Below the pieces are notes generated by a model. The model worked only from the letters and a program-made list of their open reading frames with translations, did not search any database and was not told where the DNA came from. Made by a program: the position numbers and the translations under genes. A stretch of 64,000 nt of DNA. It comes from an uncultured virus (IMG/VR IMGVR_UViG_3300032167_007731). Taxonomy: Duplodnaviria > Heunggongvirae > Uroviricota > Caudoviricetes. The stretch lies in IMG/VR virus record IMGVR_UViG_3300032167_007731, one strand, 5' to 3'. Shown here in pieces: positions 41,413 through 55,586 of the stretch (position 1 is its first letter; every line of letters begins with the position of its first letter).

Positions 41413-42507
41413 TTACTCATCATCACCTGTGTACTTTGTTTGAGTACCATTCGCCAAAAATTGATAATGTGGATTATAACCTGCCTCTGCTGCCTCCTGA
41501 AAACTATCAAATTTTCTATCAACATTAACATTTACATAATTACCATTCTTATCTTTTTGCTGACCAGCATAACAATAATATTTTACACCATTTTGAGTAA
41601 AACCTATAATAAATGACTTCATCTTTACACGATAACCTGAAACACTTACAACATCTATGTCATAACCATTTAAAAATGTTGAATCCTGAAACATCAAAAG
41701 CAAACTTGGACTTTCTATACTATTTATAGTCGTTTGAGCACCCGAAGAAGAAGGCATATAAAAAGCATTTAATTTATTCTTTGTTCTCTGAACATTTCTT
41801 GTATGTATAGCATAGTTCATATCCTCTGTAATGCATTGACTTATAGCCTGTCTTTTTAACCTTCTAAACTCTTCATCTGTAGGTATTGCAATACCATCTA
41901 ATGTACCTAATTGAGTATTTACATCCTCTGGATTTGCAAAACTATCTAATGCCATAATACCACCACCACCGTCTACTGTTTTCCATACACCTGTTAAATC
42001 CTCTGTTACTAAATTTACAGCAAAAACAATATTATCACAAGTCAATAAATAAGGTCTTTTTGGACCCCAAAGTAATCCATAGTCCTCACCCACTACTTTT
42101 TTACCCTCTGGTGACTCTGTATCATCATCTTTTTCTACTTCTTCTAAAATATAATAACCATCAATAGCACATAAAGCTGCTGTTGGAATACAATCCTCTA
42201 TTTTCTTTAAGTTTTCTTCACTACTTGACATATCATAAGATAAGCATAAAACATTAGAAAATGTTTCTAAAACCTTTGAATGATTCAAATGAATATTATT
42301 CAATTCATTATTAGCATAGTCAGTACCTACTGAATCCGCAGAAACAGCAGACCTAAAAGCAGCCTCAACAGCATAATCAACTGCCTGTGCTAATCTTAAT
42401 TCCTCAAACTGTCGCCTATTTGTATTTTCAATATTATTTATAACTATTAGCATTATAGCAATTATAACAACTGCAATTAAATTAAATATAGCACTCCATA
42501 CTTTCAT
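41413..42507 (-). CDS. Minor pilin-like / TadG-like protein
   Basis: N-terminal TM followed by RLAQAVDYAVEAA helix (TadG-like pattern); C-terminal FDSFQEAAEAGYNP; last gene of the pilin cluster. Confidence 0.6.
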   Translation of the reverse strand: MKVWSAIFNLIAVVIIAIMLIVINNIENTNRRQFEELRLAQAVDYAVEAAFRSAVSADSVGTDYANNELNNIHLNHSKVLETFSNVLCLSYDMSSSEENLKKIEDCIPTAALCAIDGYYILEEVEKDDDTESPEGKKVVGEDYGLLWGPKRPYLLTCDNIVFAVNLVTEDLTGVWKTVDGGGGIMALDSFANPEDVNTQLGTLDGIAIPTDEEFRRLKRQAISQCITEDMNYAIHTRNVQRTKNKLNAFYMPSSSGAQTTINSIESPSLLLMFQDSTFLNGYDIDVVSVSGYRVKMKSFIIGFTQNGVKYYCYAGQQKDKNGNYVNVNVDRKFDSFQEAAEAGYNPHYQFLANGTQTKYTGDDE

Positions 42508-42524: not shown

Positions 42525-43001
42525 TTATCTTACTGTTCCAGCAAGACTAAATGAAAATTTACCTTTATCTACCCTTAATACAGTCCAAAATAGTCTCTTA
42601 CCTGGTGATAATGCAGATTCTTCTACATGAACTTTAACAACATCCTTTATATTTAATTTTACATTATCTAAATCTCCTGCTTCTAATCTTTCTACATCAT
42701 CCAATTTCAAATATAAAGATTTTGTTTTATCGCCTGGTAATTCCTCCTCTACTAATTGATATCTATAAACATCTATATCAAATGAATTACCATGTGAGTT
42801 AACAGCCATATATAACTCATTCAAATCCTGCTGTGTTATTAAAGCCTTATCAGTAGTTTTATCTATAAATTGAGTCACATCATTTAAAACCAATCTTTCT
42901 GTTACCATATCTGTACTCATATAAGAAATAAGTAGAGGTGCTAAAACCAATAAAACAAATATTAAAATTATTGTTATTACTTTATTTAAAAAATCTGACA
43001 T
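42525..43001 (-). CDS. Minor pilin-like single-TM protein
   Basis: N-terminal hydrophobic helix plus small globular domain; Tad-like locus context. Confidence 0.6.
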   Translation of the reverse strand: MSDFLNKVITIILIFVLLVLAPLLISYMSTDMVTERLVLNDVTQFIDKTTDKALITQQDLNELYMAVNSHGNSFDIDVYRYQLVEEELPGDKTKSLYLKLDDVERLEAGDLDNVKLNIKDVVKVHVEESALSPGKRLFWTVLRVDKGKFSFSLAGTVR

Positions 43002-43017
43002 TTAACTATACCCCCTC

Positions 43018-43626
43018 TTATCTCTTTAAATCAATCATATGTTCTTCCCACTCTTCAAAAGAATCCTTTGTATGAACCATATATCTTTCCTCTTCTTCAC
43101 CTGGTACTTCATATTGATAATGTATAGAATATTTCTTTTGAAAAGCACCTGTATCTGTTTCTTTTAAATCTCTTACTATTCTTCTTACTTTTGAACGATT
43201 TAACATATACACTTGTAAATCATTTACAGTTTCATCATAAGATACATTATTCTTATTATCACCCTCTTGAACTGTTACAGTATAATTCTCACCTAAACCA
43301 CCTATAGAAGAATCATATACTGTATTAGTATCTGCACCTTCATTAACACCTTTTAAATCTATCTTATTAGGTTCTCCCATTCTTGTATCTTGAACGTACA
43401 TAAACAATACTAATTCAGGATATGTATATTTCCTTTGCAACACATCTTCATAAGTATCTAAGTCATCATATTCAACTACATTATTCAAAACAGCCTTATC
43501 CTCATAATTTGCGTCATATTGCATTACATCACCATTAACCAAAGGAATAATAAAACCAAATGCAATAGCAACAACTATACCTAATACAAGAATAGCAGTT
43601 AATAAATCTAAAATGCCATCTACCAT
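43018..43626 (-). CDS. Minor pilin-like single-TM protein
   Basis: N-terminal hydrophobic helix; locus context. Confidence 0.58.
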   Translation of the reverse strand: MVDGILDLLTAILVLGIVVAIAFGFIIPLVNGDVMQYDANYEDKAVLNNVVEYDDLDTYEDVLQRKYTYPELVLFMYVQDTRMGEPNKIDLKGVNEGADTNTVYDSSIGGLGENYTVTVQEGDNKNNVSYDETVNDLQVYMLNRSKVRRIVRDLKETDTGAFQKKYSIHYQYEVPGEEEERYMVHTKDSFEEWEEHMIDLKR

Positions 43627-43640
43627 TTGATATCACTCCT

Positions 43641-44045
43641 TTAATCTATTTTTTCATTACTCACAATAACTTTATAACCACCATAAGGTCTATCCTTTAC
43701 TAATACATGAACTTTACCCTCTAAATGTTTTATCACACAAGGGTTATCATCAGTTAAATCTACAACACCACCACCACAAATCTTACACTCAAATTCAGGC
43801 ACTGCATTACTATAAGTTTTTAAAACATTATATATGGCAGCAGAAGGCATAATCACCTCATTCTTTCCTGATAATTCCTCTAAAACAGAAGACTCCATTG
43901 TAGCAACTATATCACTACCTGTTTCTGACGCTTGATTTGCAACATCATTACCCAAATAAACAGTAAACCATATTATACTTATTACCGCACATATCGCCAC
44001 CAAAGCCACAGATATTTCTACTGTCAATGAAACTTCTCTTTCCAT
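43641..44045 (-). CDS. Minor pilin-like single-TM protein
   Basis: ATG 44045 (MEREVSLTVEISVALVAICAVISII) resembles the major pilin N-terminus; CKIC...C in the head domain. Confidence 0.62.
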   Translation of the reverse strand: MEREVSLTVEISVALVAICAVISIIWFTVYLGNDVANQASETGSDIVATMESSVLEELSGKNEVIMPSAAIYNVLKTYSNAVPEFECKICGGGVVDLTDDNPCVIKHLEGKVHVLVKDRPYGGYKVIVSNEKID

Positions 44046-44061
44046 ATAATCACCTACTTTT

Positions 44062-44652
44062 TTAATCAATATCTCTCATAAATATTATTGCATCATACTC
44101 ATATAAATCTGAATTATATACAGGTAAGCAATAAAAACCATTTGTTTCTGTTACACTTGAACCTAGCCACTCACTCAATTTCGATGGTTGCCAATCTGTA
44201 AACTCATCTTTACCTGTTAATCCTTTTAATTCTATTTCATCATCCTCTGCATCACTGTATAACTTCAATGAAGTACCTTTTAAGTCAAATATATAAATAT
44301 CATATTCTCTTGGAAAAGTACCTACAAACTTTATTACGTCATCACCTTTCATCTTTACAACACAATCACTGTAATTACTCAATATTTTTGTTTCAAAAAA
44401 ATTTGAAGTATAACCACTAAAGTTTAAGCCACCATCTATACCTTTAAGAACACTTGTTTCTATCTGTTTACCTGAGGTATATTCATACAATTTTCTCATT
44501 TCACCCAACTCAACCATTGCATTATTCTGTTGAATTTTTAAATCTAATGAGTTACGAGCAACACCACCAAAAAAAGAGATTATTAAAATCAATATCGCAA
44601 ACAAAAAACACTCTATACATATATTTATAGCCTCTCTTAATTCATTACTCAT
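44062..44652 (-). CDS. Minor pilin-like single-TM protein
   Basis: MSNELREAINICIECFLFAILILIISFF; KGDDVIKFV motif shared with neighbours. Confidence 0.62.
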   Translation of the reverse strand: MSNELREAINICIECFLFAILILIISFFGGVARNSLDLKIQQNNAMVELGEMRKLYEYTSGKQIETSVLKGIDGGLNFSGYTSNFFETKILSNYSDCVVKMKGDDVIKFVGTFPREYDIYIFDLKGTSLKLYSDAEDDEIELKGLTGKDEFTDWQPSKLSEWLGSSVTETNGFYCLPVYNSDLYEYDAIIFMRDID

Positions 44653-44671
44653 TTACACTCACCTCACAAGA

Positions 44672-45175
44672 TTATTTCTTTTCTATCACAATAGCAGTAA
44701 CCTCACCAAAATTCAAATTACCATATGCGTCTTCACCTTTTCTATCCAATAACTCACTATAATCATCTCTATTATACTCACCAAATACTAAATAAGAAGT
44801 ATATTCAACACCCCTTGTCGCTTTCATAAGTTCATCTATTTTAAATCTATCTGAATCTAAACCATCAGCTTTTTCTATTTCATAAGTATAATAGCGACCA
44901 CCTATACCCTCAAAATCATCAACATACACTTCAATATCACTATCAAAAAATTCTCTTATACATACAATAACATCATCAGTATAAATTGTCTCATTATTAT
45001 ATCTATTTAATGTTGTGTATGCACTCATATTTCTTTGACTTGCCAATTCATTATTATTTACAACAGCCAAATCACTCCTTATATTCATAGCAAAAGCAAT
45101 TAATCCTAAAACTGCTGCTGCTAGCATACAACCTATTGCTATATAAATAGTTTCTTTTATTTCTGAAGAAAACAT
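44672..45175 (-). CDS. Minor pilin-like single-TM protein
   Basis: MFSSEIKETIYIAIGCMLAAAVLGLIAF; RYNNETIYTDDVIVCIREF aligns with the major pilin DYNDKIVTGTMVKSAVQNF. Confidence 0.65.
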   Translation of the reverse strand: MFSSEIKETIYIAIGCMLAAAVLGLIAFAMNIRSDLAVVNNNELASQRNMSAYTTLNRYNNETIYTDDVIVCIREFFDSDIEVYVDDFEGIGGRYYTYEIEKADGLDSDRFKIDELMKATRGVEYTSYLVFGEYNRDDYSELLDRKGEDAYGNLNFGEVTAIVIEKK

Positions 45176-45250
45176 ACTTATCCCCTCCTTTATTCAATCA
45201 TATAATAATAATTTTTTATGCATTAAAAATTATATAAACTGTCTATAAAT

Positions 45251-45286
45251 AAATAAAGTATGTGCTTTTTTGCACATACTTTATTT
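45251..45286 (-). terminator. Intrinsic terminator
   Basis: AAATAAAGTATGTGC-tttttt-GCACATACTTTATTT. Confidence 0.85.
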
Positions 45287-45301
45287 TAATATTTAAGCAT
45301 A

Positions 45302-48022
45302 TTAATATAACTTTATTGTTCTAATGAAATCAAAACTTTTATATCCTGCTGTACCTTTTGATATATAATATTTTAAATTAATAGTTATAGAAGCATTTGA
45401 TAAATCTCCAAAATCTTCAATAATAATATATTTACCATACTGCATATCTTCCATTTTCAAAGTTCCTGAAGTAGATAACGAAGATGACATAAAATCATAA
45501 TTACCCTTTTCAGATAAATTCAATACATACTTAATATCTGAACCATTTATCTGTTTATCTGTTAAAACAAAATCATATTTATTTGACATATCAAAAGTTA
45601 TATTTACAACATTTGAATATAAACCTAAAATATCTTTCAATCTAAAAGATAAAGAATAAACACCTGAAACATCTAAATTATCTAAACAAATATATAAGTT
45701 ATTACCATCTATATAAGTTGTATAATCTGATAAAGTCTTATAAAGTAATGATTCTTGTGATACACCATCTTTAACAGCACTTACAAAACAACTTCCTGTA
45801 TTAAAATCTAAAGACTCATTATAAGTAAAAGGTATTTTCAATAATACTGAAGTATCACCAAGACACTTAACTTCTACATTCTCATTTATAACAGGACCAC
45901 CCTCATCACCAAGCCAATTATTCTCTACTTTAATTACTTCACCATAATAATATCCATTAGATGTTTTAACATAAGGTGCATAAAAAGTATTCAATTCACT
46001 ATCTACTGTATTAATTGTAGTATTAAAAGTATATGTTTCCTTACTACCTATATTTCTACCACCTGATAAATGTGTCCAACTATTACTTGGTTCACTCACA
46101 GAAGAAGAACTAGTTTCTCTATATGCTATACCTACTTCATCCACTGATATAGAATTTGTTACCACTTTACTATTATTAATTACCAAATTTCCATTTACAA
46201 ATGTTACATAACCACCAACTAAACTACTTACAGGGTTCATACCTTCAGGTAGTACATTAGTTAAAACAGGATAAGTATTTATAAGAGAACCATCACCAAA
46301 ATCTATAACATAACCAAAATCTGTAGGTGTGTTATAAACCTGTTCTCCATTTACATAGGTTCCTCTAAATGACAAATACCCATTAAATCTAATATATTCA
46401 TTTTCAGGTGTTGGGTCTTCATCATTAGGTTTTGTATACTTTTTCAAATATACTAATTTTAAGTCATCCAATGTTTCTGCATCTTCTTCTAAATAAGTTA
46501 CACGAACTGCCGCAACAACAGGAACATTATCACCTTTTAATATTACATCTGCTTTTAATTTCACTGGATAATCTTCATCTGAAATACTCATTTCTATGTC
46601 AAAATCAAAAGCCTCTAAAGTAAATGGAGTACCATAAGCATATAAACCATCCCTATCCTTTACATATAATCTATATGTACAATAACCCTCTATATCATCT
46701 AATTCTATTGTAAAAGGTTCATAATGCTGACCTGTATATCTTTGTTTTCCATCATTATTCTTATAAGTAGGATTTATAGGCTCCTCATCTTTATCACTTT
46801 CTAACCAAACTATACCTACTTCTCGAACTTCACTATCACCCTCTGTTATGCGAATTTCAGAAATTTCTAATGTGTTATCATGATAATGCTTAACAATACC
46901 ATTTGTAATTTTTGGACCACCAACTACATTACCCTGCTCATCTGCTACATTAAAAATCAAATCCTCACCATAATAAGTTTTTGTTCTTGCAGTTGTATTC
47001 TCATACATAGTACCACTTATTTTTACTCGAACACCTGGTTCTAAAACTAATTTATTTGGAAAGGTATCTAAAACACTTTCAGTTGCTTTTTCTGAAACAT
47101 ACACTTCACCTACATCATTAGACATACCATATAAAGTGGATTTCTCATTTACTAAATATATTTGAGACACTTCTGAATTACTTAAAGTTAATTTTATATC
47201 TTCAAAACAAACTATCCTACCTAATACTTTTGAATTAGTTAAAGTCAAATTTGAAACACTTTGAGTTAAATAAATATCTCTTCCTACTGTTGAATTCTGT
47301 AAAACTATATCCCTTGAAACAACTAAATTTTTTGGAAAATTAGAAACAAATGTTTTACCTGATTTATCTATATCTATTTTTGGAATATAAGTATCTGCAA
47401 AATTACTTAACAACGTTATCATTTCTGCTCTGGTTATATTTGATTTTGGATTTACCCTACCATCTGGAGTACCATTTAAATAACCTAATCTTGATAACGC
47501 ATAAACACTACTACGAGCCCAAGAAGATATACTACTATCATCTTTAAATCCCGTACTACCACTATAACTTGTATCTATCTTAAAAACTCTACATAATATT
47601 ACAGCAACTTCTTCACGAGTTGCATTACCACGAGGATTTACTTTATTATCACCTACACCATTAATATAACCCTCTGCAACACATCTTAAAACACTTTCTC
47701 TATAATAATCTTCAATATATAAATCTCTAAAATAATTATAAGTTGTTTTATTTAAACCTAACATTCTATCTACTATAATTGCCAAATCGCCACGAATTAT
47801 TGGACTATCTGGCATAAATCTACCATCTGAACCATTGACTATATTATAATCAGCCCATTTTAATATTTGGTCATGAGCCCAATGATGCTGTGTATCTAAA
47901 AAATCAGATATTTGTACACTCTTACCATTTTCATCCTTAAAACTTGTAGTAAAACCAAAAACATTTACAGATAAAGAAAATATAAGGCTCAAAACTACTA
48001 ATAAACTTAATATCTTTTTCAC
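45302..48022 (-). CDS. Secreted protein with three N-terminal SLH domains and beta-rich C-terminal domains
   Basis: GTG 48022 behind GGAGGG; signal peptide; FLDTQHHWA...PDSPIIRGDLA, NATREEVA, NITRAEM; embedded in the pilus locus. Confidence 0.9.
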   Translation of the reverse strand: MKKILSLLVVLSLIFSLSVNVFGFTTSFKDENGKSVQISDFLDTQHHWAHDQILKWADYNIVNGSDGRFMPDSPIIRGDLAIIVDRMLGLNKTTYNYFRDLYIEDYYRESVLRCVAEGYINGVGDNKVNPRGNATREEVAVILCRVFKIDTSYSGSTGFKDDSSISSWARSSVYALSRLGYLNGTPDGRVNPKSNITRAEMITLLSNFADTYIPKIDIDKSGKTFVSNFPKNLVVSRDIVLQNSTVGRDIYLTQSVSNLTLTNSKVLGRIVCFEDIKLTLSNSEVSQIYLVNEKSTLYGMSNDVGEVYVSEKATESVLDTFPNKLVLEPGVRVKISGTMYENTTARTKTYYGEDLIFNVADEQGNVVGGPKITNGIVKHYHDNTLEISEIRITEGDSEVREVGIVWLESDKDEEPINPTYKNNDGKQRYTGQHYEPFTIELDDIEGYCTYRLYVKDRDGLYAYGTPFTLEAFDFDIEMSISDEDYPVKLKADVILKGDNVPVVAAVRVTYLEEDAETLDDLKLVYLKKYTKPNDEDPTPENEYIRFNGYLSFRGTYVNGEQVYNTPTDFGYVIDFGDGSLINTYPVLTNVLPEGMNPVSSLVGGYVTFVNGNLVINNSKVVTNSISVDEVGIAYRETSSSSVSEPSNSWTHLSGGRNIGSKETYTFNTTINTVDSELNTFYAPYVKTSNGYYYGEVIKVENNWLGDEGGPVINENVEVKCLGDTSVLLKIPFTYNESLDFNTGSCFVSAVKDGVSQESLLYKTLSDYTTYIDGNNLYICLDNLDVSGVYSLSFRLKDILGLYSNVVNITFDMSNKYDFVLTDKQINGSDIKYVLNLSEKGNYDFMSSSLSTSGTLKMEDMQYGKYIIIEDFGDLSNASITINLKYYISKGTAGYKSFDFIRTIKLY

Positions 48023-48054
48023 TTTTAACCCTCCATAACTCATTAAAAATAATA

Positions 48055-48086
48055 AAGGGATGTTATAGCCAAGTATAACATCCCTT
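48055..48086 (-). terminator. Intrinsic terminator directly after the major pilin-like gene
   Basis: AAGGGATGTTATA-gccaag-TATAACATCCCTT. Confidence 0.85.
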
Positions 48087-48114
48087 GTTAATAAGATACT
48101 ACACCTAGTATCTA

Positions 48115-48816
48115 TTATTTTACCTGCTGTTCAAATACGATACCAATTGTTGTACCAGAAGTATCTTTAATCAAGTTAGCAGTAAATTTAGCAGAAGGTG
48201 ATAAATATTCACAGTTACCTGTTCTGCTGAAACCACCGATTGTATTATCATATACAACTTTACCAGTACTATCTAACATAAATGCTGCGTCTGTTGTATA
48301 AATACCATCTTTAAGTTTAAATCCTGCTGCACCCTCTGTATCTAAAAGAGCATTATAGTTTACAAAGTAACCAGCACCAACTTTAGAAACATCATCAGAA
48401 GTTGTACCTACTTTAACACCACCTGTGATGTCTGACTTAAATGCACCTGAAGTTCCGTCTATTTCTCCATGTATATGCTGCATAGCGCCACCATCTAATG
48501 TCCAAACAGATAAATATTCATGAGCATTATATGTAGTAACATCCTTATCCATTGCATTTGTATTGATTAAGATAGCAACTGACTTACCACTGAAGTTCTG
48601 AACTGCTGACTTAACCATTGTACCTGTTACAATCTTATCATTGTAATCTTCAAATGCTGAACCTGATACAGCTTCCAAGTTATCCTGAACACCTACTGTA
48701 CCTTCGTTAGCAACACCTTTAGCGATACTAAATACGCCAAAACCTAAACCAATTACTGCTGCAAGAGCAATCAATACGATACCAAGCATAGTACCTGAAC
48801 TAATTTCTTTTTCCAT
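48115..48816 (-). CDS. Probable major pilin of the Tad-like system
   Basis: N-terminal hydrophobic helix; AGGAGG RBS; own 180-bp upstream region and terminator; frequent AAC/TAC/TTC/ATC codons, rare elsewhere here and suggestive of high expression. Confidence 0.7.
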   Translation of the reverse strand: MEKEISSGTMLGIVLIALAAVIGLGFGVFSIAKGVANEGTVGVQDNLEAVSGSAFEDYNDKIVTGTMVKSAVQNFSGKSVAILINTNAMDKDVTTYNAHEYLSVWTLDGGAMQHIHGEIDGTSGAFKSDITGGVKVGTTSDDVSKVGAGYFVNYNALLDTEGAAGFKLKDGIYTTDAAFMLDSTGKVVYDNTIGGFSRTGNCEYLSPSAKFTANLIKDTSGTTIGIVFEQQVK

Positions 48817-48997: not shown

Positions 48998-51073
48998 TTA
49001 TTCCATCATTGTCATAGCACTCATAAATTCTCTTACACCCAAATACCCTAAAGGTATCAGCAATTCTCCTACTACCATACACCCTAAAGGAGTTAAAGAT
49101 AAAGGACCACATAAACCACGCTTTTTATCAATTGTTGCTTGAATTGTTATTTCTCTAATTCTCATTATCTGTTCTCTTTCAATAACTAAATCTGAAAAAG
49201 CTTCTTGCATTGATAAATCACTAATAGTTAATTTTAATTTACCTATAAATCTTTTAAACTCTGTTAATGGTGTCTTTGACTGTAATCTCGTTAACTCCAA
49301 TTCAGGATTTGCAGGATAACTATGATAACAATATGTTAGCATATCCTTATGAATTCTAGAATGCTGACTTAACTCATACAAAGTATCAAGAGTGTCCATA
49401 TCTGTTGTCATATAAATACTTACAAGAGTTTGTAACTGTAAAAAGTCATCTTCAGCATCAGTCTTTACAAGTATTTTTCTAAGAGTTATTAATAAATTTG
49501 GAACATTATACCCTATCAAACCTATTAAAAAACAAACCCAGACTAACCACCAATGAAACTTTGTATTTTGAACTGTATCAAATTTATCTTGCAATCTTTT
49601 TACTTGGTCTAAAACCTGTAAATCAGATAAACCTGGCATATAACCTTTAACCATCGCTATTATAGCATCCTCTGACAAATCAGGGGCACCACCACTACCA
49701 TCTTCTGGTTTTGGGGCTAAACCTACTAACTGTTTTATAGATAATACAACTTTTGCTATTTCATCTTTAAGTGTCATTTCAGGCTGCAATGCTAATCTTT
49801 GTGCCATATATCTTTCATCTAACATCAAAATAGACTCATGGGAATATTGTTCCATTTCATCAGTTGCAACCAACGATAATTGTTGAGTACTATTTCGAAC
49901 ATAGTCACTACCCATTTGAATTACACTAAAACAAACAACAAAACCTGCAATAAATGCTATTAAACCAAATATTACTTTTTGTGTATATAATTCCTCTATA
50001 GTTTGACGAGATAAAGCTTCCTTAAACTTTTGTTTTAACTTAAAAGCCTTTTTATTCTTAGGTTTTAAGTTATCTATAAACCTTTTCCAAGATGGTTTAT
50101 TCAACAAATTTAAAGCCCATATAACTCTATCATCTTCCTTTACAGGAACAGTAGTATTTATTTTTGTTATTACTGCATAACAAATAATACTCATTAGAAC
50201 TGTAACTGTTCTACAAATATAACCTATAGGACCACCATAAATCAATGCTGTACCTGGCATAATACCTGAAAAATAAGACTCTACAAGACCACAAGCAAAT
50301 ATAGGAACAAAAGGTAAATATTCAATCATACCAAATTTCTTATTCTGTGTTGTAATTTTTGTTATTTCAGCATTAACATCAGTAGATAATGTTGTTAAAG
50401 CATTTATAAAATTAGAACCACCTTTTTCATCTTTTGAATCACCCTGATTGTTTATATTATGACAAATACCAACCAATGTTTGTAATGTTCTAAAAGGTGT
50501 TGCTGCATAAAATTCTTGCAATCTTAATTCAGCGTCAGTACAAGTCAATATACTATAAATTTCATCAAAAGGTTTCTTCAAAATATCCGCAATAGGTGCG
50601 TCATTTATGGCCTCAACAACACTATTTGACTTCATATATTCTTCTCTTATAGCACCTAAAGCTTTACTCATAGCATACAAAACCTTAAAATACTGTTTAT
50701 CTAATTGTTTATCTATCAAAGTTGTATTCAATAATACAGCAAAAGCCACACACATTAAAATAGATACAACATCATTAAACATAAATATACTTATACCTAT
50801 TAAACCCGCTGACACACCCCAAGATAATAAAAAATACTGTGTACTTAATAAGTATAATTCTTCTCTTTTATAAACACATAAATTTGCTAATTTACTATAA
50901 ATCTTTCTAATACTACCTTGAGTTATAAAGTTACGAGCCAAAAACTTATAAGCTTTTCTATACATTTCTTTTTTTGCTTTGGCCTGTTCTGCTTTTGATT
51001 TATTACCATTTATTATACTAAATACTGCAAAAACGACTACTATACCTAAAACTGCAAATATCGCAATAGTCAT
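48998..51073 (-). CDS. Pilus assembly platform membrane protein, TadB+TadC-like halves fused
   Basis: 691 aa, multi-TM, two halves each with a cytoplasmic helical domain; immediately after the ATPase (TAATG coupling). Confidence 0.7.
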   Translation of the reverse strand: MTIAIFAVLGIVVVFAVFSIINGNKSKAEQAKAKKEMYRKAYKFLARNFITQGSIRKIYSKLANLCVYKREELYLLSTQYFLLSWGVSAGLIGISIFMFNDVVSILMCVAFAVLLNTTLIDKQLDKQYFKVLYAMSKALGAIREEYMKSNSVVEAINDAPIADILKKPFDEIYSILTCTDAELRLQEFYAATPFRTLQTLVGICHNINNQGDSKDEKGGSNFINALTTLSTDVNAEITKITTQNKKFGMIEYLPFVPIFACGLVESYFSGIMPGTALIYGGPIGYICRTVTVLMSIICYAVITKINTTVPVKEDDRVIWALNLLNKPSWKRFIDNLKPKNKKAFKLKQKFKEALSRQTIEELYTQKVIFGLIAFIAGFVVCFSVIQMGSDYVRNSTQQLSLVATDEMEQYSHESILMLDERYMAQRLALQPEMTLKDEIAKVVLSIKQLVGLAPKPEDGSGGAPDLSEDAIIAMVKGYMPGLSDLQVLDQVKRLQDKFDTVQNTKFHWWLVWVCFLIGLIGYNVPNLLITLRKILVKTDAEDDFLQLQTLVSIYMTTDMDTLDTLYELSQHSRIHKDMLTYCYHSYPANPELELTRLQSKTPLTEFKRFIGKLKLTISDLSMQEAFSDLVIEREQIMRIREITIQATIDKKRGLCGPLSLTPLGCMVVGELLIPLGYLGVREFMSAMTMME

Positions 51074-53184
51074 TATACATCAACCTCCCCATCAAAGAAG
51101 TCAAAGAAAAATGCTGCGTCATCTAAATCTTCTTCAGAAACAGTTTCACCACCCATTGTTATATTTAATGAACTTGTTTCACTATCCTCTACAACAGATT
51201 CACCAACTATTTCTAAATCACCAATAGATGCTGTTTCAACACTAACTTCTTCAGGAAGTCCTTTTTCTAATCTTAATTTCTTTTCTTCCTCTTCATATCT
51301 TAATACTGCTTCTGCTACTTCATCTACAACACCATCATATTCTTCACTTGGAGGTCTTCTTCCCCAATTTGCAAAAATAAACTTATCATAAGCCTTTAAC
51401 ACCTCTGGTGTCATAACTGAACGCATTTTTGATTCTAATGCTGGACTAAATCTATCTGCAACATAATATGTATGAGTAGATACATCATATTTCAAAATAT
51501 CATGAGAATAGAAAGAAACTCTATCAGTACTTCTTTCATAATATTCCCTATCCAATACAGCTTTTGTATAATCCAAATCATTTTTATCTACTTCTGGATA
51601 AGGAACACCCTCTGCCAATGGTACTATTTCACTTACCCTCTCAATATAACGCTTACCATCAGGTGTATAATCCAAGTGAATATCACACTTAACAACGTCT
51701 ATTACCTGTCTTTCAGCAGTTGACATATTACTAAAACCACCCGCATTTACAAGTGAATTTCTTAAAGCAAACACAAGGTCTTTTGGTGTATTAGCATGGT
51801 GAGAGAATATTGTAAATATAGATGCAACCTGACCCATCTGAATCATACGAGCAGCAATTATATCAGTAGCAACCTCACCAACAATTGAAACTGCTGCGTC
51901 AGATTTTTTCAAAGCATCCTGTAATTCTGCTGCTGTAACTGTCGTTGTTTCCTGAACTGACAAAATATTTCTTGTAGGATATAATTCACGCAAATATAAC
52001 TCTGGTGCCATTTCCAATACACGAATTGTATAACGAGGGTTAATAAATCTTATAATAGAAGACATCAAAGTTGTCTTACCTGAACCCTGACGACCTGTAA
52101 CACCACAAGTAACCTGCCCTCTCATTAAAAATTCTATCAAAGCCATAGGTAAATCACCACGCTTTGTATAAGGTTTCACAATAAGTGCCTTTGGAGATAC
52201 ATCACTTAATGAGAACTTACGAACAAATATAGCCCAATATTCAGAAGCAGGAGGTCTTAAAGCCAATATACGAGATTTATCATACATTGTATTTACCATA
52301 TAACCACGCTTTGCTGTTAAAGGACCTGGATTACCCCAACGAACTAACAACTGAATTATTCTCTTTAACTCTTCTTCTGTTCCAAAATTCATAAATCTTA
52401 AATGAATATATTTACCTTGATAATATAACCATACAGCATTAGTCGCTTTCATAATACCTGCTTTACTTTTATTAATATTACTTAATATAGAACCTGAAGT
52501 ACCCATATTAAAACCATTAACATCCATTTCACGCAAAGTATCTACAATACCAAAGCCTTTATATAATTGATAAACTAATACTGCTAATACATCTATTTTT
52601 TCATCATTATTTAAGTGTATATCTTCTTCATCATATGACATATAAAGTTCTTCTATATCTATAAAGTAAGAAGATTCACCACCACCGTCTGCATCTATTC
52701 CTGTTCTTTCTCTTGCAAAATTATTTTTATCTATCCAAGCAGAAAGAGCACCTTTACCATATTTCTTTTTATACCTATACATAAGTATTTCAAACTTTAT
52801 ATGGTCTGAAGGGTCTTGACCCTCTCCTAAACCTAATAATTCCTCTACTGTATCAATAGGTATATTCTCTGCTATAAAAGTTCTTATTAACTCTATTACA
52901 ATAATTTTTGCACTATCTATACCAAATACACAATTTCTTAAGGCTTCCTGAATTCTTGCCTTTCTCTTATACAAAGCATTAAATTCTGCTTCTGTTAAAC
53001 CTAAAGAATAATCATCCTTTATTATTTCAACCATTTCTAATTTAACAGCCTCAACTACCTTATCAATACTTCCAAAATCATCTTCCTCAATTATTTCCTG
53101 CTGACCTTTTGATTTCTGATACATTGAAAATAAAATTAAAACAACTGCTATTAAACTAACAACAATTAAAATACTATTGAGCAT
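51073..53184 (-). CDS. cpaF: CpaF/TadA-family pilus assembly ATPase with an N-terminal TM anchor
   Basis: RILALRPP...FVRKF, Walker A GRQGSGKTT, EMAPEL Asp-box-like, SIVGEVA Walker B, FSHHA His box; ATG 53184. Confidence 0.88.
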   Translation of the reverse strand: MLNSILIVVSLIAVVLILFSMYQKSKGQQEIIEEDDFGSIDKVVEAVKLEMVEIIKDDYSLGLTEAEFNALYKRKARIQEALRNCVFGIDSAKIIVIELIRTFIAENIPIDTVEELLGLGEGQDPSDHIKFEILMYRYKKKYGKGALSAWIDKNNFARERTGIDADGGGESSYFIDIEELYMSYDEEDIHLNNDEKIDVLAVLVYQLYKGFGIVDTLREMDVNGFNMGTSGSILSNINKSKAGIMKATNAVWLYYQGKYIHLRFMNFGTEEELKRIIQLLVRWGNPGPLTAKRGYMVNTMYDKSRILALRPPASEYWAIFVRKFSLSDVSPKALIVKPYTKRGDLPMALIEFLMRGQVTCGVTGRQGSGKTTLMSSIIRFINPRYTIRVLEMAPELYLRELYPTRNILSVQETTTVTAAELQDALKKSDAAVSIVGEVATDIIAARMIQMGQVASIFTIFSHHANTPKDLVFALRNSLVNAGGFSNMSTAERQVIDVVKCDIHLDYTPDGKRYIERVSEIVPLAEGVPYPEVDKNDLDYTKAVLDREYYERSTDRVSFYSHDILKYDVSTHTYYVADRFSPALESKMRSVMTPEVLKAYDKFIFANWGRRPPSEEYDGVVDEVAEAVLRYEEEEKKLRLEKGLPEEVSVETASIGDLEIVGESVVEDSETSSLNITMGGETVSEEDLDDAAFFFDFFDGEVDV

Positions 53185-54004
53185 CCCCTTCACCCCCTAC
53201 AGTATTCTTTGTTGTACTTACTTTCTTTTCCTGTTGCTTTGCTTTAAGATTATTTATTCTTATTTTTGCAACAACAGAAGCCAAACGATTAATATCACTA
53301 TTTAATTCAGCAACTTTTGAATTCTTTGCCCTAATATTTTTATAAATAGTTAATAATTGACCACTATTACAACCAAGAATAACCCAGGGGTTATAATGAA
53401 TAACACTAATAGGTGCTTTCACTCCTAATCTCTTTGGAACATCTCTATCCTTTCCAGCAACAGAAGAATACTTATTACAAACAAGAACTATCTTTTTACC
53501 TGAAAACATTTTCATATATTTAGCACTTTGATTCTTAAAATCATCCAATTCCGCATAAGATTGAGTAAAGTTTAATATTACTAACTCTGATTTACCTAAA
53601 ATATATTTTGCTGTTTCAGATTCTATACTATTAAAATCATATATAATATATTCAAAATCTGAATGGTCCACTAAATACTCTGAAAAAGTAAGCATATCTT
53701 CACTACCAAAATTACTTTTATTATTGGTAAAAACATAAACATTATCTGCTACATTTTTACAATAATCAGGTATTGCTTCTGACTGAATTGCACCCTCTCT
53801 TAATAATTTAACCATTTGAGTAGGTGTAGAAGTTTTATCTTCAAACTGTTGTAATCCTAAATAAGCATATAAAGAATTTGAAACAGAATCAGTATGAGTA
53901 AGTAACACCTTTTTCTTCATATTACCCAAACCCAATGCAGTAAATAATGCTGTCACTGTATTACCATTACCACCACAATGAGGTGAAATAACTGAAATAA
54001 CCAT
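53174..54004 (-). CDS. CpaE/TadZ-like (MinD/ParA-fold) protein with a degenerate Walker A
   Basis: VISVISPHCGGNGNTVTA (Lys replaced by Asn), FEYIIYDF, LVCNKY. Confidence 0.75.
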   Translation of the reverse strand: MVISVISPHCGGNGNTVTALFTALGLGNMKKKVLLTHTDSVSNSLYAYLGLQQFEDKTSTPTQMVKLLREGAIQSEAIPDYCKNVADNVYVFTNNKSNFGSEDMLTFSEYLVDHSDFEYIIYDFNSIESETAKYILGKSELVILNFTQSYAELDDFKNQSAKYMKMFSGKKIVLVCNKYSSVAGKDRDVPKRLGVKAPISVIHYNPWVILGCNSGQLLTIYKNIRAKNSKVAELNSDINRLASVVAKIRINNLKAKQQEKKVSTTKNTVGGEGDAQ

Positions 54005-54023: not shown

Positions 54024-54602
54024 CTATTGTAACTCTCTTGCAATTATTTGAGAAAATTCTTCTTTTGAAACTCCTAATGTCTGTGCAAATAGGAATGAAC
54101 AAATATTTACAAGTTCTGGAATCTTACAAGGCATAAATAATTTATTTTCCTCACAATCCCAAACATAACTTATTTTTTTACTATCTACACCACAAAACTT
54201 AACATCTTTTTCCTTTGGTCTTTTTGTAGAAATTAACATATCTATATGTTCATTTACTTCCAATTCATCCAAAGTATCTTCACTACAAATTAATTCATTT
54301 TGACCATGACAATAAACTAAATTATCATTACCTTCTATTATCTGATTTGTTGTTATTATTAAAACATAATCATAAGAGGATAATCTTATACCTAAAGCCT
54401 CAACTGATTCTTTATTTACTAAATTCATTACATAAAAATCACTTCTACCAACTGTAAATTCATTAGAATAATCATCAGAAAATCTTCTAAAATTAGTATC
54501 ATCTGTAATTACTAATACTTTTCCTAAATTATCACAAATCTTAAATAAAGGATATGCTATAACACGTTTATCTATTGGACCTACTAATTGTATTTGTCTC
54601 AT
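54024..54602 (-). CDS. Hypothetical cytoplasmic protein of the pilus locus (possible degenerate P-loop fold)
   Basis: IQLVGPIDKRVIAYPL...KVLVITD...YDYVLII; sits between the SAF and CpaE-like genes. Confidence 0.6.
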   Translation of the reverse strand: MRQIQLVGPIDKRVIAYPLFKICDNLGKVLVITDDTNFRRFSDDYSNEFTVGRSDFYVMNLVNKESVEALGIRLSSYDYVLIITTNQIIEGNDNLVYCHGQNELICSEDTLDELEVNEHIDMLISTKRPKEKDVKFCGVDSKKISYVWDCEENKLFMPCKIPELVNICSFLFAQTLGVSKEEFSQIIARELQ

Positions 54603-54620: not shown

Positions 54621-55586
54621 TTAACCTTCTTGCGCTGCTTTTAACTCTGCTTCAACACGCTTATCATATTCTTGCTGACCATCTTTTATAGTTTCTGTTA
54701 TTTCAGTTCTAATTTTTGCAGCAGTATCTCTACTTGCAGCGTCACCTAAACCTGCCTCAATCATCTTTCTTCTTAATACTAAATCAGTTTCAGATAATTT
54801 TCTATCACCTAAATTTGGGTCACCTGCCATAATGCCTTGAACCAGAGTACTAGGAGCATAGAAACTATCTGCTTTTTCCTGATTTCCACCCTCAACATAT
54901 GTTACTGCATATATAATTGAACCTACTGCATCAACAGTATCATTTAATTTACCATCACCATTCAAATCAAGAGGAGATTTAAAAGACTCATTATAAACTA
55001 TATTATCAACCAACATATCACTATATAAATGTATATCTTCCTCTGTTAAAATTAATTTTATAACATTACCATTTACCTGAGCAACCTGTCTATGTGATAT
55101 ACCTACAAAGTCTGCACCTGTACCATATTTTATACGAATATCAACATATTCTCCTACTTGAAGTCCTATTGGTAACTGGTCCACAATAACATCATAATAT
55201 CTCATATCTGAGGTTATAACTTCTTCATACACACAGTCTGTTGTTAAAACAGAACCCGCTGTCATATTTAATCTAAAATGTTTTCCTACTAATTCTTCCA
55301 TATCCTGAACTAAATTAGTAGCCATACTAACAGGAACATCTATCTGAACTAAATCAGTTTCCTCTATTTTCTTACCACTTGGCACATCTGCACCTACTGT
55401 ATATGCAGGAACTAACTCACCAATAGCAGTCAATGAATCATTTAAACTTGCAATTTCTGAATCTTTTGCAGCTAACTGACTATCTACATCCCCCTTATAC
55501 ATATAAAAGAAAACACCTGTTGCCACCCAAGATAATATCAATAATACTATCAAGATAACCTTTAAATTCAATAACTTTTTTAACAT
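54621..55586 (-). CDS. cpaB: SAF-domain CpaB/RcpC-like pilus assembly protein
   Basis: TM plus short coiled coil; DVPSGKKIEETDL...ELVGKHFRLNMTAGSVLT (SAF); LPIGLQVGEYVDIRI (RcpC-like). Confidence 0.8.
   Translation of the reverse strand: MLKKLLNLKVILIVLLILSWVATGVFFYMYKGDVDSQLAAKDSEIASLNDSLTAIGELVPAYTVGADVPSGKKIEETDLVQIDVPVSMATNLVQDMEELVGKHFRLNMTAGSVLTTDCVYEEVITSDMRYYDVIVDQLPIGLQVGEYVDIRIKYGTGADFVGISHRQVAQVNGNVIKLILTEEDIHLYSDMLVDNIVYNESFKSPLDLNGDGKLNDTVDAVGSIIYAVTYVEGGNQEKADSFYAPSTLVQGIMAGDPNLGDRKLSETDLVLRRKMIEAGLGDAASRDTAAKIRTEITETIKDGQQEYDKRVEAELKAAQEG

What the first reader, a model, noticed from the sequence alone, without database searches (positions are those of the whole stretch)
42525..48816. 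Family of pilin-like proteins with no class III signal peptide and a shared head motif
Seen: these proteins start with a short acidic leader followed directly by a hydrophobic helix (MEKEISSGTMLG, MFSSEIKETIYI, MSNELREAINI, MEREVSLTVEI, MVDGILDLL, MSDFLNKVI). None has the basic leader plus G|xxxxE motif of type IV/Flp prepilins. Several share a post-helix motif (DYNDKIVTGTMVKSAVQNF, RYNNETIYTDDVIVCIREF, VKMKGDDVIKFVGTF, EVIMPSAAIYNVLKTY). Inference: pilins that assemble without prepilin-peptidase cleavage, where Glu near position 4-5 could replace E5.
Basis: partly seen in the sequence, partly recalled or inferred. Interest (0 to 1): 0.7.

Follow-up and report, generated by a model that had tools for sequence, protein, structure and literature searches.

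The report
Pilin-like subunits of a divergent Tad-like machine
These small genes most likely encode the main and minor building blocks of a surface filament made by a very divergent relative of the bacterial Tad pilus machine, and their unusual acidic, leader-less starts raise the testable possibility that they are assembled without the usual trimming enzyme.

Summary
Six small minus-strand ORFs (42525-45175 and 48115-48816) begin with 3-9 mostly acidic residues followed directly by a transmembrane helix. None has a basic leader or a G|xxxxE motif.

They lie downstream of a SAF/CpaB-like protein, a weak ParA/TadZ-like protein, a CpaF-like ATPase with an N-terminal membrane anchor, and a 691-aa PilC/TadB-like platform.

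- **Synteny:** the gene order recurs in 29 Firmicute loci and on Bacillales megaplasmids.
- **Major subunit:** p233 looks like the main building block. Residues 1-47 are identical across its clade and the middle is hypervariable. Relatives carry up to four tandem copies. AlphaFold gives a 50-residue helix plus a beta head.
- **Paralogues:** p167, p196 and p142 are related to p233 (hhalign E 9e-12 and 1.5e-9). p202 and p158 share only the architecture.
- **Known families:** 0 of 54 members match any pilin family.
- **Peptidase:** no A24 peptidase lies in the window, and only 1 of 30 related loci has one. Yet 28 of 30 host genomes or records encode one elsewhere.
- **Possible cleavage site:** Gly8 of p233 could be one, but it is Gly in only 81 of 141 family representatives.

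Filament subunits of a Tad-like type IV filament: about 0.7. Assembly without cleavage: about 0.4, unproven.

The parts
48115..48816 (-). p233, candidate major filament subunit (family A)
   Evidence: N-terminal hydrophobic helix. AF2 gives a helix at 7-56 plus a beta head, pLDDT 74. Residues 1-47 are identical and 96-152 are 21% identical among 17 clade members. Up to 4 tandem copies in relatives. 2115 representatives at E<=1e-3.
44672..45175 (-). p167, minor subunit, paralogue of the major one (family B)
   Evidence: hhalign family A vs B: Prob 97.4, E 9.3e-12, 142 columns over the full length.
44062..44652 (-). p196, second family B paralogue
   Evidence: BLASTP to p167 E 1e-4. Aligned within family B.
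43641..44045 (-). p142 (start taken at the internal ATG, MEREV...), minor subunit (family C)
   Evidence: hhalign A vs C: Prob 96.3, E 1.5e-9 over the N-terminal 54 residues. Orthologues start MDNE/MENE.
43018..43626 (-). p202, pilin-like architecture only (family D), very acidic N-terminus
   Evidence: N-terminal helix. Orthologues M-x-E-x-DDAFD, mean N-flank charge -3.6. No similarity to families A or B.
42525..43001 (-). p158, pilin-like architecture only (family E)
   Evidence: N-terminal helix. Found in 26 of 29 loci. No similarity to family A. ComGD model only at E 0.093.
41413..42507 (-). p364, large bitopic protein closing the subunit gene row (family F), basic N-terminus
   Evidence: Found in 27 of 29 loci directly after family E. 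N-flank charge +1.0.
45302..48043 (-). p913, SLH-domain wall-anchored protein inserted between the major and minor subunit genes; not pilin-like
   Evidence: Pfam SLH 6e-27, 3 repeats. Signal-peptide-like N-terminus.
48998..51073 (-). p691, polytopic platform protein (PilC/GspF/TadB-C-like, fused)
   Evidence: hhalign to a TadB of L024: E 1.1e-4, Prob 56, 200 columns. AF2 pLDDT 82. VIA-align top hit is the PilC N-terminal domain 2whn_B, Z 8.6, 101 of 103 residues; EpsF Z 6.9; SpoIIIAB Z 5.9. No Pfam match in 0 of 16 members.
51073..53193 (-). p706, CpaF/TadA-like secretion ATPase with an N-terminal membrane anchor
   Evidence: PDB CpaF 7.1e-10, with Walker A, Walker B and His box aligned. TIGR03819 1e-9. 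The N-terminal hydrophobic segment is present in 30 of 30 family members.
53174..54004 (-). p276, weak ParA/MinD/TadZ-like protein with a degenerate P-loop
   Evidence: AAA_31 E 0.003. MinD E 0.027. hhalign to the CpaE-like protein of L024: E 3e-4, Prob 40.
54024..54602 (-). p192, conserved cytoplasmic protein of unknown family
   Evidence: Found in 15 of 29 loci by phmmer, always between the SAF and ParA-like genes.
54621..55586 (-). p321, SAF-domain CpaB/RcpC-like bitopic protein
   Evidence: Pfam SAF 24.8 bits against a cut-off of 21. TIGR03177 CpaB E 8.8e-4, below its cut-off. Found in 28 of 29 loci.
56203..57402 (-). p399, secreted M23 peptidoglycan peptidase linked to the locus
   Evidence: Pfam Peptidase_M23 4e-20. 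A relative lies next to the locus in 14 of 29 loci.

Best explanation
The region encodes the building blocks of a surface filament made by a very divergent, monoderm, Tad-like member of the type IV filament superfamily.

Roles proposed:
- p233 is the major subunit.
- p167, p196 and p142 are paralogous minor subunits.
- p202, p158 and p364 are further pilin-shaped proteins, probably tip or base components.

Proposed mechanism: the subunits are inserted into the membrane by their N-terminal helix. They are then extracted and stacked helix-to-helix by the membrane-anchored CpaF-like ATPase p706 acting through the PilC/TadB-like platform p691. A SAF/CpaB-like protein, a TadZ-like protein and an M23 wall hydrolase help the filament through the cell wall.

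What is shown: the gene context, the conservation, the paralogy, the predicted fold class and the absence of a canonical class III signal. What is inferred: filament formation, the roles of the minor proteins, membrane topology and maturation.

On maturation, my estimates are:
- about 40%: the subunits are used as translated, with Met1 and Glu/Asp at positions 2-5 standing in for the Phe1/Glu5 pair of ordinary pilins;
- about 35%: a host A24 peptidase encoded elsewhere trims p233 and p142 after residue 8;
- about 25%: something else.
For: Machine context:
- CpaF is the best solved relative of p706 (7.1e-10, catalytic boxes aligned).
- p691 resembles TadB (hhalign E 1.1e-4) and PilC/EpsF/SpoIIIAB domains (Z 8.6, 6.9, 5.9). 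The nearest named Atlas cluster is TadB at 0.87, a lead only.
- p321 has a SAF domain above the Pfam cut-off.
- The same gene order occurs in 29 of 29 loci for the ATPase and platform, 28 of 29 for p233 and 26-27 of 29 for p158 and p364. It also occurs on plasmid pPPM1a, annotated SAF / CpaF / hypotheticals.

Major-subunit signature:
- Residues 1-47 have mean pairwise identity 1.00, against 0.21 for residues 96-152, in 17 sequences.
- Relatives carry up to 4 tandem copies.
- AF2 predicts a helix at 7-56 followed by a beta head.

Paralogy: A vs B E 9.3e-12; A vs C E 1.5e-9; B vs C E 4.4e-5.

Non-canonical N-termini:
- 141 of 149 top representatives start exactly at the profile's Met1.
- 132 of 141 have Asp/Glu in the first five residues.
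- Column 8 is Gly in 81 of 141, and Ile, Val or Met in 24 of 141.
- At the equivalent position, family B has Ala/Thr, family D has Asp and family E has Lys.

No A24 gene lies in the window or in 29 of 30 related loci.

Weak hint of transcription: in one gut metatranscriptome assembly, a 710-nt contig covers 48123-48832, which is the p233 gene alone. The runs were chosen for holding this gene, and contigs do not measure expression level.
Against: - No sequence or structure link to any known pilin. 0 of 54 members of the seven families match a pilin model in Pfam or NCBIfam at E<=0.05. The p233 profile has 0 PDB hits at E<=10.
- Fold searches with the p233 model returned nothing above noise, or only generic long helices.
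- Matches of the machine parts are all below curated family cut-offs, except the SAF and M23 domains.
- The flanks of the helix carry no positive-inside signal, so the topology that puts the head outside is assumed, not shown.
- p202, p158 and p364 could be machine parts rather than filament parts.
- Against the uncleaved reading: every studied type IV filament uses a prepilin peptidase (PMC6668835, passages). 28 of 30 carriers encode one. Column 8 is Gly, Ala or Ser in 99 of 141 representatives.
Confidence: 0.7

Rival explanations
1. These are ordinary prepilins with an atypical, archaeal-style class III signal. A host A24 peptidase encoded elsewhere cuts p233 (and p142) after the small residue at position 8, or after Gly12. 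The acidic stretch is a discarded leader, and no Glu5 is needed, as in archaeal pilins.
For: Column 8 of the p233 family is Gly in 81, Ala in 11 and Ser in 7 of 141. Column 12 is Gly or Ala in 134 of 141. Column 10 is Lys or Arg in 63 of 141. The p142 family has Gly, Ser or Ala at position 8 in 14 of 16. In the divergent clade the site reads K-G, K-A or R-A in 3 of 5. An A24 gene is present in 28 of 30 carrier genomes or records. Peptidases shared between systems or encoded apart are documented (PMC6668835, passages).
Against: The leader is acidic and not basic. Column 8 is Ile, Val, Met or Thr in 34 of 141. Families B, D and E have Thr, Asp or Lys at the equivalent place. Residues 1-8 are as conserved as the helix itself. 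The 185-kb viral-class record and one MAG have no A24 match, though both may be incomplete.
Confidence: 0.35
2. Only p233 (with its paralogues) is a filament subunit. p202, p158 and p364 are bitopic parts of the membrane machine, comparable to PilN/PilO or to the uncleaved archaellin-like FlaF/FlaG. (This comparison is recalled, not tested here.)
For: There is no detectable similarity of families D and E to family A or B. p364 has a normal basic N-flank, as do the machine's other bitopic proteins. Their sequences are more uniformly conserved than p233.
Against: They sit in the subunit gene row after the major subunit, in the fixed order B-C-D-E-F. This is the usual layout for minor pilin sets. 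Families D and E share the acidic or neutral short N-terminus of the subunits rather than the basic one of the machine parts.
Confidence: 0.25
3. The apparatus is not a long pilus. It is a short pseudopilus that pushes large wall-associated proteins through the cell wall, like a type II secretion piston. Candidate cargo: the giant glycine-rich protein, the SLH proteins, and DUF5704 proteins in the plasmid clade.
For: Giant secreted proteins are linked to the locus. These are the ALK_LTK_GRD protein at 57531-63998, relatives next to 4 of 31 related loci, and a DUF5704 protein on pPPM1a. An M23 wall hydrolase lies in 14 of 29 loci.
Against: The hypervariable middle of p233 and its tandem gene copies suggest an exposed, abundant polymer. 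The linkage to giant proteins was seen in only a minority of loci.
Confidence: 0.12
4. These are small membrane proteins with the acidic N-terminus outside and the C-terminal domain in the cytoplasm, and they are unrelated to filament formation.
For: Acidic short N-tails and a Lys/Arg just after the helix (K33 in p233) fit N-out insertion by the positive-inside rule (general knowledge; charges).
Against: A hypervariable cytoplasmic domain would be odd. There is operon linkage with a filament ATPase and platform. The predicted helix runs 50 residues, beyond the membrane span, as in pilins.
Confidence: 0.05

Closest known systems
Tad / Flp (type IVc) pilus systems, e.g. the Caulobacter Cpa system
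   Same: CpaF is the closest solved relative of the ATPase. The gene order is SAF/CpaB-like, TadZ-like, ATPase, platform, then pilin-like genes. The platform is related to TadB. Only one ATPase gene was found in each locus examined.
   Different: The ATPase carries an N-terminal membrane anchor in 30 of 30 members. The platform is one fused 650-700-aa protein with no T2SSF Pfam match in 0 of 16 members. The major subunit is 150-310 aa with a globular, variable head, unlike the short Flp (Flp size recalled). There is no G|xxxxEY motif. No TadV gene lies in 29 of 30 loci. No TadE/TadF family match was found.
Archaeal type IV pili and archaella (recalled knowledge, not tested here)
   Same: Major subunits have a globular, variable head and no conserved Glu5. 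There is precedent for uncleaved pilin-like proteins (FlaF/FlaG) within a type IV filament machine.
   Different: The archaeal FlaI model matches the ATPase far more weakly than CpaF does (E 7.5e-4 vs 1e-9). Archaeal signals have a basic residue next to the cleavage site, which the window's proteins lack.
MSH pili and other type IV filaments whose loci lack a prepilin peptidase (PMC6668835, passages)
   Same: The locus has no peptidase gene, while the genomes hold one elsewhere (28 of 30).
   Different: MSH pilins keep a canonical class III signal (recalled). Here the signal itself is missing or unrecognisable.
Com and type IVa pili of monoderm bacteria (recalled; listings only)
   Same: A filament machine in single-membrane Firmicutes, with one major and several minor subunits.
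   Different: The ComGD model matches only at E 0.093 for p158. PilT-type ATPases are much more distant than CpaF. No N-terminal methylation-motif family match was found.

Membership tests
Type IV pilins (class III signal peptide proteins) | Short basic leader ending in Gly at -1, with Glu at +5 of the mature protein | tested here: not met
   N-flanks are acidic or neutral. No G|xxxxE occurs in any of the six. Only p233 has a Gly (position 8), which is Gly in 81 of 141 representatives.
Type IV pilins (class III signal peptide proteins) | Cleavage by an A24 prepilin peptidase | not testable with these tools
   This needs N-terminal analysis of the mature protein. An A24 gene is absent from the window and from 29 of 30 loci, but present in 28 of 30 carrier genomes or records.
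Type IV pilins (class III signal peptide proteins) | About 50-residue N-terminal helix with a hydrophobic first half | tested here: met
   Hydropathy scan. AF2 helix at 7-56 in p233. Modelled for p233 only.
Type IV pilins (class III signal peptide proteins) | Globular beta-sheet head like that of solved pilins | tested here: inconclusive
   The model has a beta head at pLDDT 43-93 per ten-residue block. Foldseek found no hit at E<=0.001. The VIA-align list is filled by long helices.
Type IV pilins (class III signal peptide proteins) | Match to a curated pilin sequence family | tested here: not met
   No pilin family appears among the hits of 54 members in Pfam or NCBIfam at E<=0.05. The profile gives 0 PDB hits at E<=10.
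Tad (type IVc) pilus system | CpaF/TadA-type ATPase | tested here: met
   CpaF 7.1e-10 with Walker A, Walker B and His box aligned. TIGR03819 E 1e-9, but 38 bits against a cut-off of 373. So it is a relative, not an equivalog.
Tad (type IVc) pilus system | TadB/TadC platform (T2SSF domains) | tested here: inconclusive
   No Pfam match in 0 of 16. hhalign to TadB E 1.1e-4, Prob 56, and to TadC E 0.01, Prob 4. PilC N-terminal domain Z 8.6 with 101 of 103 residues aligned.
Tad (type IVc) pilus system | Flp-type major pilin with the G|xxxxEY motif | tested here: not met
   p233 is 233 aa with no such motif. No Flp family match was found.
Tad (type IVc) pilus system | TadV/CpaA peptidase | tested here: not met
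   None lies in the window. Within 22-kb loci it occurs only in L024, where it belongs to an adjacent canonical Tad operon.
Tad (type IVc) pilus system | RcpC/CpaB (SAF) and TadZ/CpaE accessory proteins | tested here: inconclusive
   The SAF domain is above the Pfam cut-off, but the CpaB model scores 18.6 bits against a cut-off of 71. p276 is weakly ParA-like. hhalign to a CpaE-like protein gives E 3e-4, Prob 40.

The most novel reading that the evidence does not exclude
This is a widespread, unstudied branch of the type IV filament superfamily in Firmicutes. It is carried on chromosomes, megaplasmids and possibly huge phage-like elements of gut bacteria. Its subunits would be leader-less pilins: inserted and polymerised as translated, with no prepilin peptidase. 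Met1 plus Asp/Glu at positions 2-5 would play the part of the processed Phe1/Glu5 end, and the motor ATPase is itself anchored in the membrane. That would break the rule that every type IV filament needs an A24 peptidase.
Probability: 0.35. Interest if true: 0.85.

Novelty: new variant of a known kind. Interest (0 to 1): 0.62.

Why it matters
The prepilin peptidase is treated as one of the few universal parts of type IV filaments (PMC6668835, passages). A large family of filament subunits without a recognisable signal, in operons without a peptidase, makes that rule directly testable in culturable carriers found: Paenibacillus, Cohnella, Vallitalea maricola and Pseudoflavonifractor capillosus ATCC 29799. 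The family has 2115 representatives at 50% identity.

Even if the subunits turn out to be trimmed, the system adds a distinct, unannotated surface filament to common soil and gut Firmicutes and their mobile elements. It combines a membrane-anchored motor with a hypervariable major subunit, which may bear on adhesion, phage reception or cell-to-cell contact.

Tried and rejected
**Searches for a solved or known relative of p233**
- The PDB sequence search with the p233 profile gave 0 hits at E<=10.
- Foldseek of the p233 model against PDB gave no hit at E<=0.001; the rows were unrelated.
- VIA-align wide for p233 returned only generic long helices at Z 5.2-5.5, so the head was barely tested.
- The viral-contig scan with p233 found no relative. 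tblastn of the ATPase against phage records gave one weak partial hit.

**Machine parts**
- Foldseek of the whole p691 model gave nothing. Only the wide aligner gave the PilC, EpsF and SpoIIIAB rows.
- Single-sequence PDB searches with p691, p321 and p276 gave nothing significant. The PDB search with the p691 family profile (alignment A3) also gave nothing significant.

**Complex prediction**
- Complex prediction with three copies of p233 returned 'no answer' (score 0.00).

- No whole genome is held for the window.
- The search of earlier findings returned nothing three times.

**Literature**
- Searches found no paper that describes this system. The library lacks most subscription journals.
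- I followed a possible link to pXO16-type conjugation through PMC9673590 (one passage). It gave nothing relevant.

**Viral nature of the 185-kb IMG/VR record**
- No capsid (PF05065) or portal (PF04860) match, and only a sub-threshold terminase match. Its viral nature is therefore not confirmed here.

**RNA evidence**
- Parts of the operon without RNA contig cover prove nothing.

**Idea dropped**
- I considered whether p691 hides a fused peptidase. Nothing supports it.
Full report
**What is there.** The window is low-GC DNA (26-39% GC) with strong negative GC skew, and every sizeable ORF lies on the minus strand. Between 41413 and 57402 a tight gene row reads, in the direction of transcription:
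- an M23 peptidase, p399;
- p212;
- a SAF-domain protein, p321;
- p192;
- a weak ParA-like protein, p276;
- a 706-aa ATPase, p706;
- a 691-aa polytopic protein, p691;
- p233;
- an SLH wall-anchored protein, p913;
- five small proteins, p167, p196, p142, p202 and p158;
- p364.

A giant protein with four ALK/LTK glycine-rich domains lies just upstream and runs off the window.

**The observation.**
- The ORF listing starts each ORF at the first ATG/GTG/TTG after a stop, so no longer leader is available. Five of the six have a clear Shine-Dalgarno sequence.
- For p142 the internal ATG at 44045 (MEREV...) fits the orthologues, behind a weaker AGGTG.
- Each protein has one N-terminal hydrophobic segment.
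- None has a basic leader or G|xxxxE. p233 does have Gly at position 8.

**Relatives and synteny.** The ATPase retrieved 29 loci in Paenibacillus, Cohnella, Vallitalea, Pseudoflavonifractor, Ruminiclostridium, Clostridium and Metabacillus. Identity is 33-59%.
- Searching the window's proteins against the plus-strand ORFs of these loci found the ATPase and platform in 29 of 29. p233 was in 28, the SAF protein in 28, p364 in 27, and p158 and the ParA-like protein in 26 each.
- In the 25 loci where both anchor genes were recognised, the genes after the major subunit keep one order. The N-termini are conserved: MNEW.. or MDEW.. (family B, which includes p167 and p196), MDNE.. (family C, p142), M-x-E-x-DDAFD.. 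(family D, p202) and MTD(L/I)(I/F)NK.. (family E, p158).
- Some loci carry 2-4 tandem genes for the major subunit.
- A more distant clade (L024-L029) has fewer minor genes. The ATPase also has 33-38% identical relatives on Bacillales megaplasmids. On pPPM1a the neighbours are annotated SAF domain protein, CpaF, hypotheticals and a DUF5704 protein.
- In Cohnella and Paenibacillus chromosomes the locus sits among housekeeping genes.

**The machine.**
- The best solved relatives of p706 are CpaF structures (7.1e-10), with Walker A, Walker B and His box aligned. PilT and an archaeal ATPase follow at about 1e-3. The best NCBIfam model is the TadA-family TIGR03819 (1e-9), far below its cut-off.
- All 30 family members examined begin with a hydrophobic segment followed by basic residues. 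The motor therefore appears anchored in the membrane.
- p691 matches no Pfam family in 0 of 16 members.
- The p691 profile aligns 200 columns with a TadB from the canonical Tad operon next to L024 (hhalign E 1.1e-4, Prob 56).
- Its AlphaFold model has pLDDT 82. Its top hit among 48,161 chains is the PilC N-terminal domain (2whn_B: Z 8.6, rmsd 3.0, 101 of 103 residues). EpsF scores Z 6.9 and SpoIIIAB Z 5.9. These Z values are modest for helical proteins, but they point to one family.
- The protein-language-model Atlas gives TadB as the nearest named cluster at 0.87, a lead only.
- p321 passes the Pfam SAF cut-off and weakly matches CpaB.
- p276 is weakly ParA/TadZ-like.

Together this is a Tad-like type IV filament machine, but a remote one.

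**The subunits.** p233 has 461 relatives in the 90%-clustered database, none with a Pfam domain or an informative name. Its family profile finds 2115 representatives at 50% identity (941 at E<=1e-10).
- Within the window's clade, residues 1-47 are identical, while residues 96-152 are 21% identical and full of indels. This pattern is typical of an exposed polymer with a conserved assembly helix.
- AlphaFold with 34 sequences gives a helix from residue 7 to 56, then a strand, a short helix (the 'head motif') and a beta domain. Mean pLDDT is 74 and is low in the variable part.
- Profile comparison shows that family B is a full-length paralogue of the major subunit (Prob 97.4, E 9.3e-12). Family C shares the N-terminal 54 residues (Prob 96.3, E 1.5e-9). 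Families B and C are weakly related (E 4.4e-5).
- Families D and E show no similarity to A or B.
- None of 54 members of the seven families matches a pilin model in Pfam or NCBIfam. Neither sequence nor fold searches link p233 to a solved pilin.

**The N-terminus.**
- Of the 149 best representatives, 141 begin exactly at the profile's Met1. The short N-terminus is therefore a family trait and not a mis-called start.
- Among the 141, position 4 is Glu or Asp in 117, position 6 is Ser in 105, and 132 have an acidic residue within the first five.
- Position 8 is Gly in 81, Ala in 11 and Ser in 7. It is Thr, Met, Ile or Val in 34.
- At the equivalent place, families B, D and E have Ala/Thr, Asp and Lys.
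- N-flank net charge averages -1.0 (A), -1.1 (B), -1.6 (C), -3.6 (D) and 0 (E). It is +1.0 for p364 and +1.2 for the SAF protein of the same operons.

So the usual topogenic and peptidase-recognition features are absent. An acidic residue a few positions from the N-terminus, the hallmark of mature pilins, is present in the primary product.

**The peptidase.**
- No A24 domain occurs in any sizeable ORF of the 64-kb window.
- PF01478 was found in 28 of 30 carrier genomes or records. The two misses are a MAG and the 185-kb IMG/VR record, and both may be incomplete.
- Only L024 has an A24 gene within the 22-kb locus, and it belongs to an adjacent canonical Tad operon.
- The same search rings in 12 of 14 control genomes, so co-occurrence says little.
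- Denise et al. 2019 note that prepilin peptidases can be shared between systems, that tadV can be encoded apart, and that MSH loci lack one (PMC6668835, passages).

Absence from the locus therefore does not show absence of cleavage.

**Reading.**
- I put about 0.7 on these being the major and minor subunits of a Tad-like filament.
- Given that, the uncleaved ('leader-less pilin') reading and trans-cleavage after residue 8 are close to even. I lean slightly to the former, for three reasons: the candidate -1 residue is not conserved, several families cannot offer one, and the first eight residues are as conserved as the helix.
- p202, p158 and p364 may instead be machine parts.
- A pseudopilus role in exporting the linked giant wall proteins cannot be excluded.

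**Occurrence and expression.** Near-identical DNA occurs in animal gut and faeces metagenomes of 15 studies. In one gut metatranscriptome assembly, a 710-nt contig covers 48123-48832, which is the p233 gene alone. Only short fragments cover other genes of the operon. The runs were chosen for holding this gene and contigs do not measure level, so this is only a weak hint of transcription.

**Novelty.** I found no description of this system in six literature searches. The library is incomplete and supplements were not consulted. I class it as a new variant of a known kind: a type IV filament machine of the Tad lineage with a membrane-anchored motor, a fused unrecognised platform, no cognate peptidase, and subunits that no pilin model recognises.

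Noticed in passing
window 57531-63998 (minus strand, runs off the window): A giant protein of more than 2150 aa with four ALK/LTK glycine-rich domains (Pfam 1e-111) lies directly upstream of the operon. Its C-terminal part has relatives beside the homologous loci L005 and L022. Other parts match large proteins in L016 and L027. In all, 4 of 31 loci match by tblastn. It may be cargo or an adhesin of the filament system.
   Followed up: partly
window 51073-53193: The CpaF-like ATPase begins with a transmembrane segment followed by basic residues in all 30 family members examined. As far as I recall, a membrane-anchored type IV filament motor is unusual.
   Followed up: partly
window 1-41200: The rest of the window carries NrdD/NrdG, MutS, a Pnkp-RNA ligase fusion, a ParB-HNH protein, a DNA methylase, a Macro domain protein and a class A PBP, all on one strand. 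Several have strong PHROG matches (for example RNA ligase 2e-192 and MutS 5e-210). The Atlas cluster of p233 is labelled 52% viral. No capsid, portal or terminase gene was seen in the window. Whether it is a huge phage, a plasmid or a chromosome is open.
   Followed up: partly
L038 (IMG/VR record of 185 kb) and L019 (P. capillosus ATCC 29799): Nearly the same operon lies in a record classed as viral, next to DnaB-like, primase-like and Thg1-like genes. No capsid or portal Pfam match and only a sub-threshold terminase match were found in that record.
   Followed up: partly
L024 16454-21451: A canonical Tad operon lies immediately downstream of the divergent system in one Paenibacillus. It comprises CpaE-like, TadA, TadB and TadC genes and an A24 peptidase.
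   Followed up: partly
L013-L018, L020, L021 (about 16000-16900 in each): A conserved 95-110-aa ORF without a hydrophobic segment (MKLFGLLIPSFRKG...) sits between the family D and E genes in eight Paenibacillaceae loci. It is absent from the window.
   Followed up: no
window 14172-16484: A 770-aa SLH protein carries a 'pilus formation protein N-terminal region' domain (PF13629, E 3e-7, 30.4 bits against a cut-off of 23). It lies 25 kb from the operon.
   Followed up: no
window 53174-54004: The ParA-like protein lacks the Walker A lysine (SPHCGGNGNT; relatives SPDRRQGGTT). This recalls the atypical P-loop described for TadZ (PMC6668835, passage).
   Followed up: no
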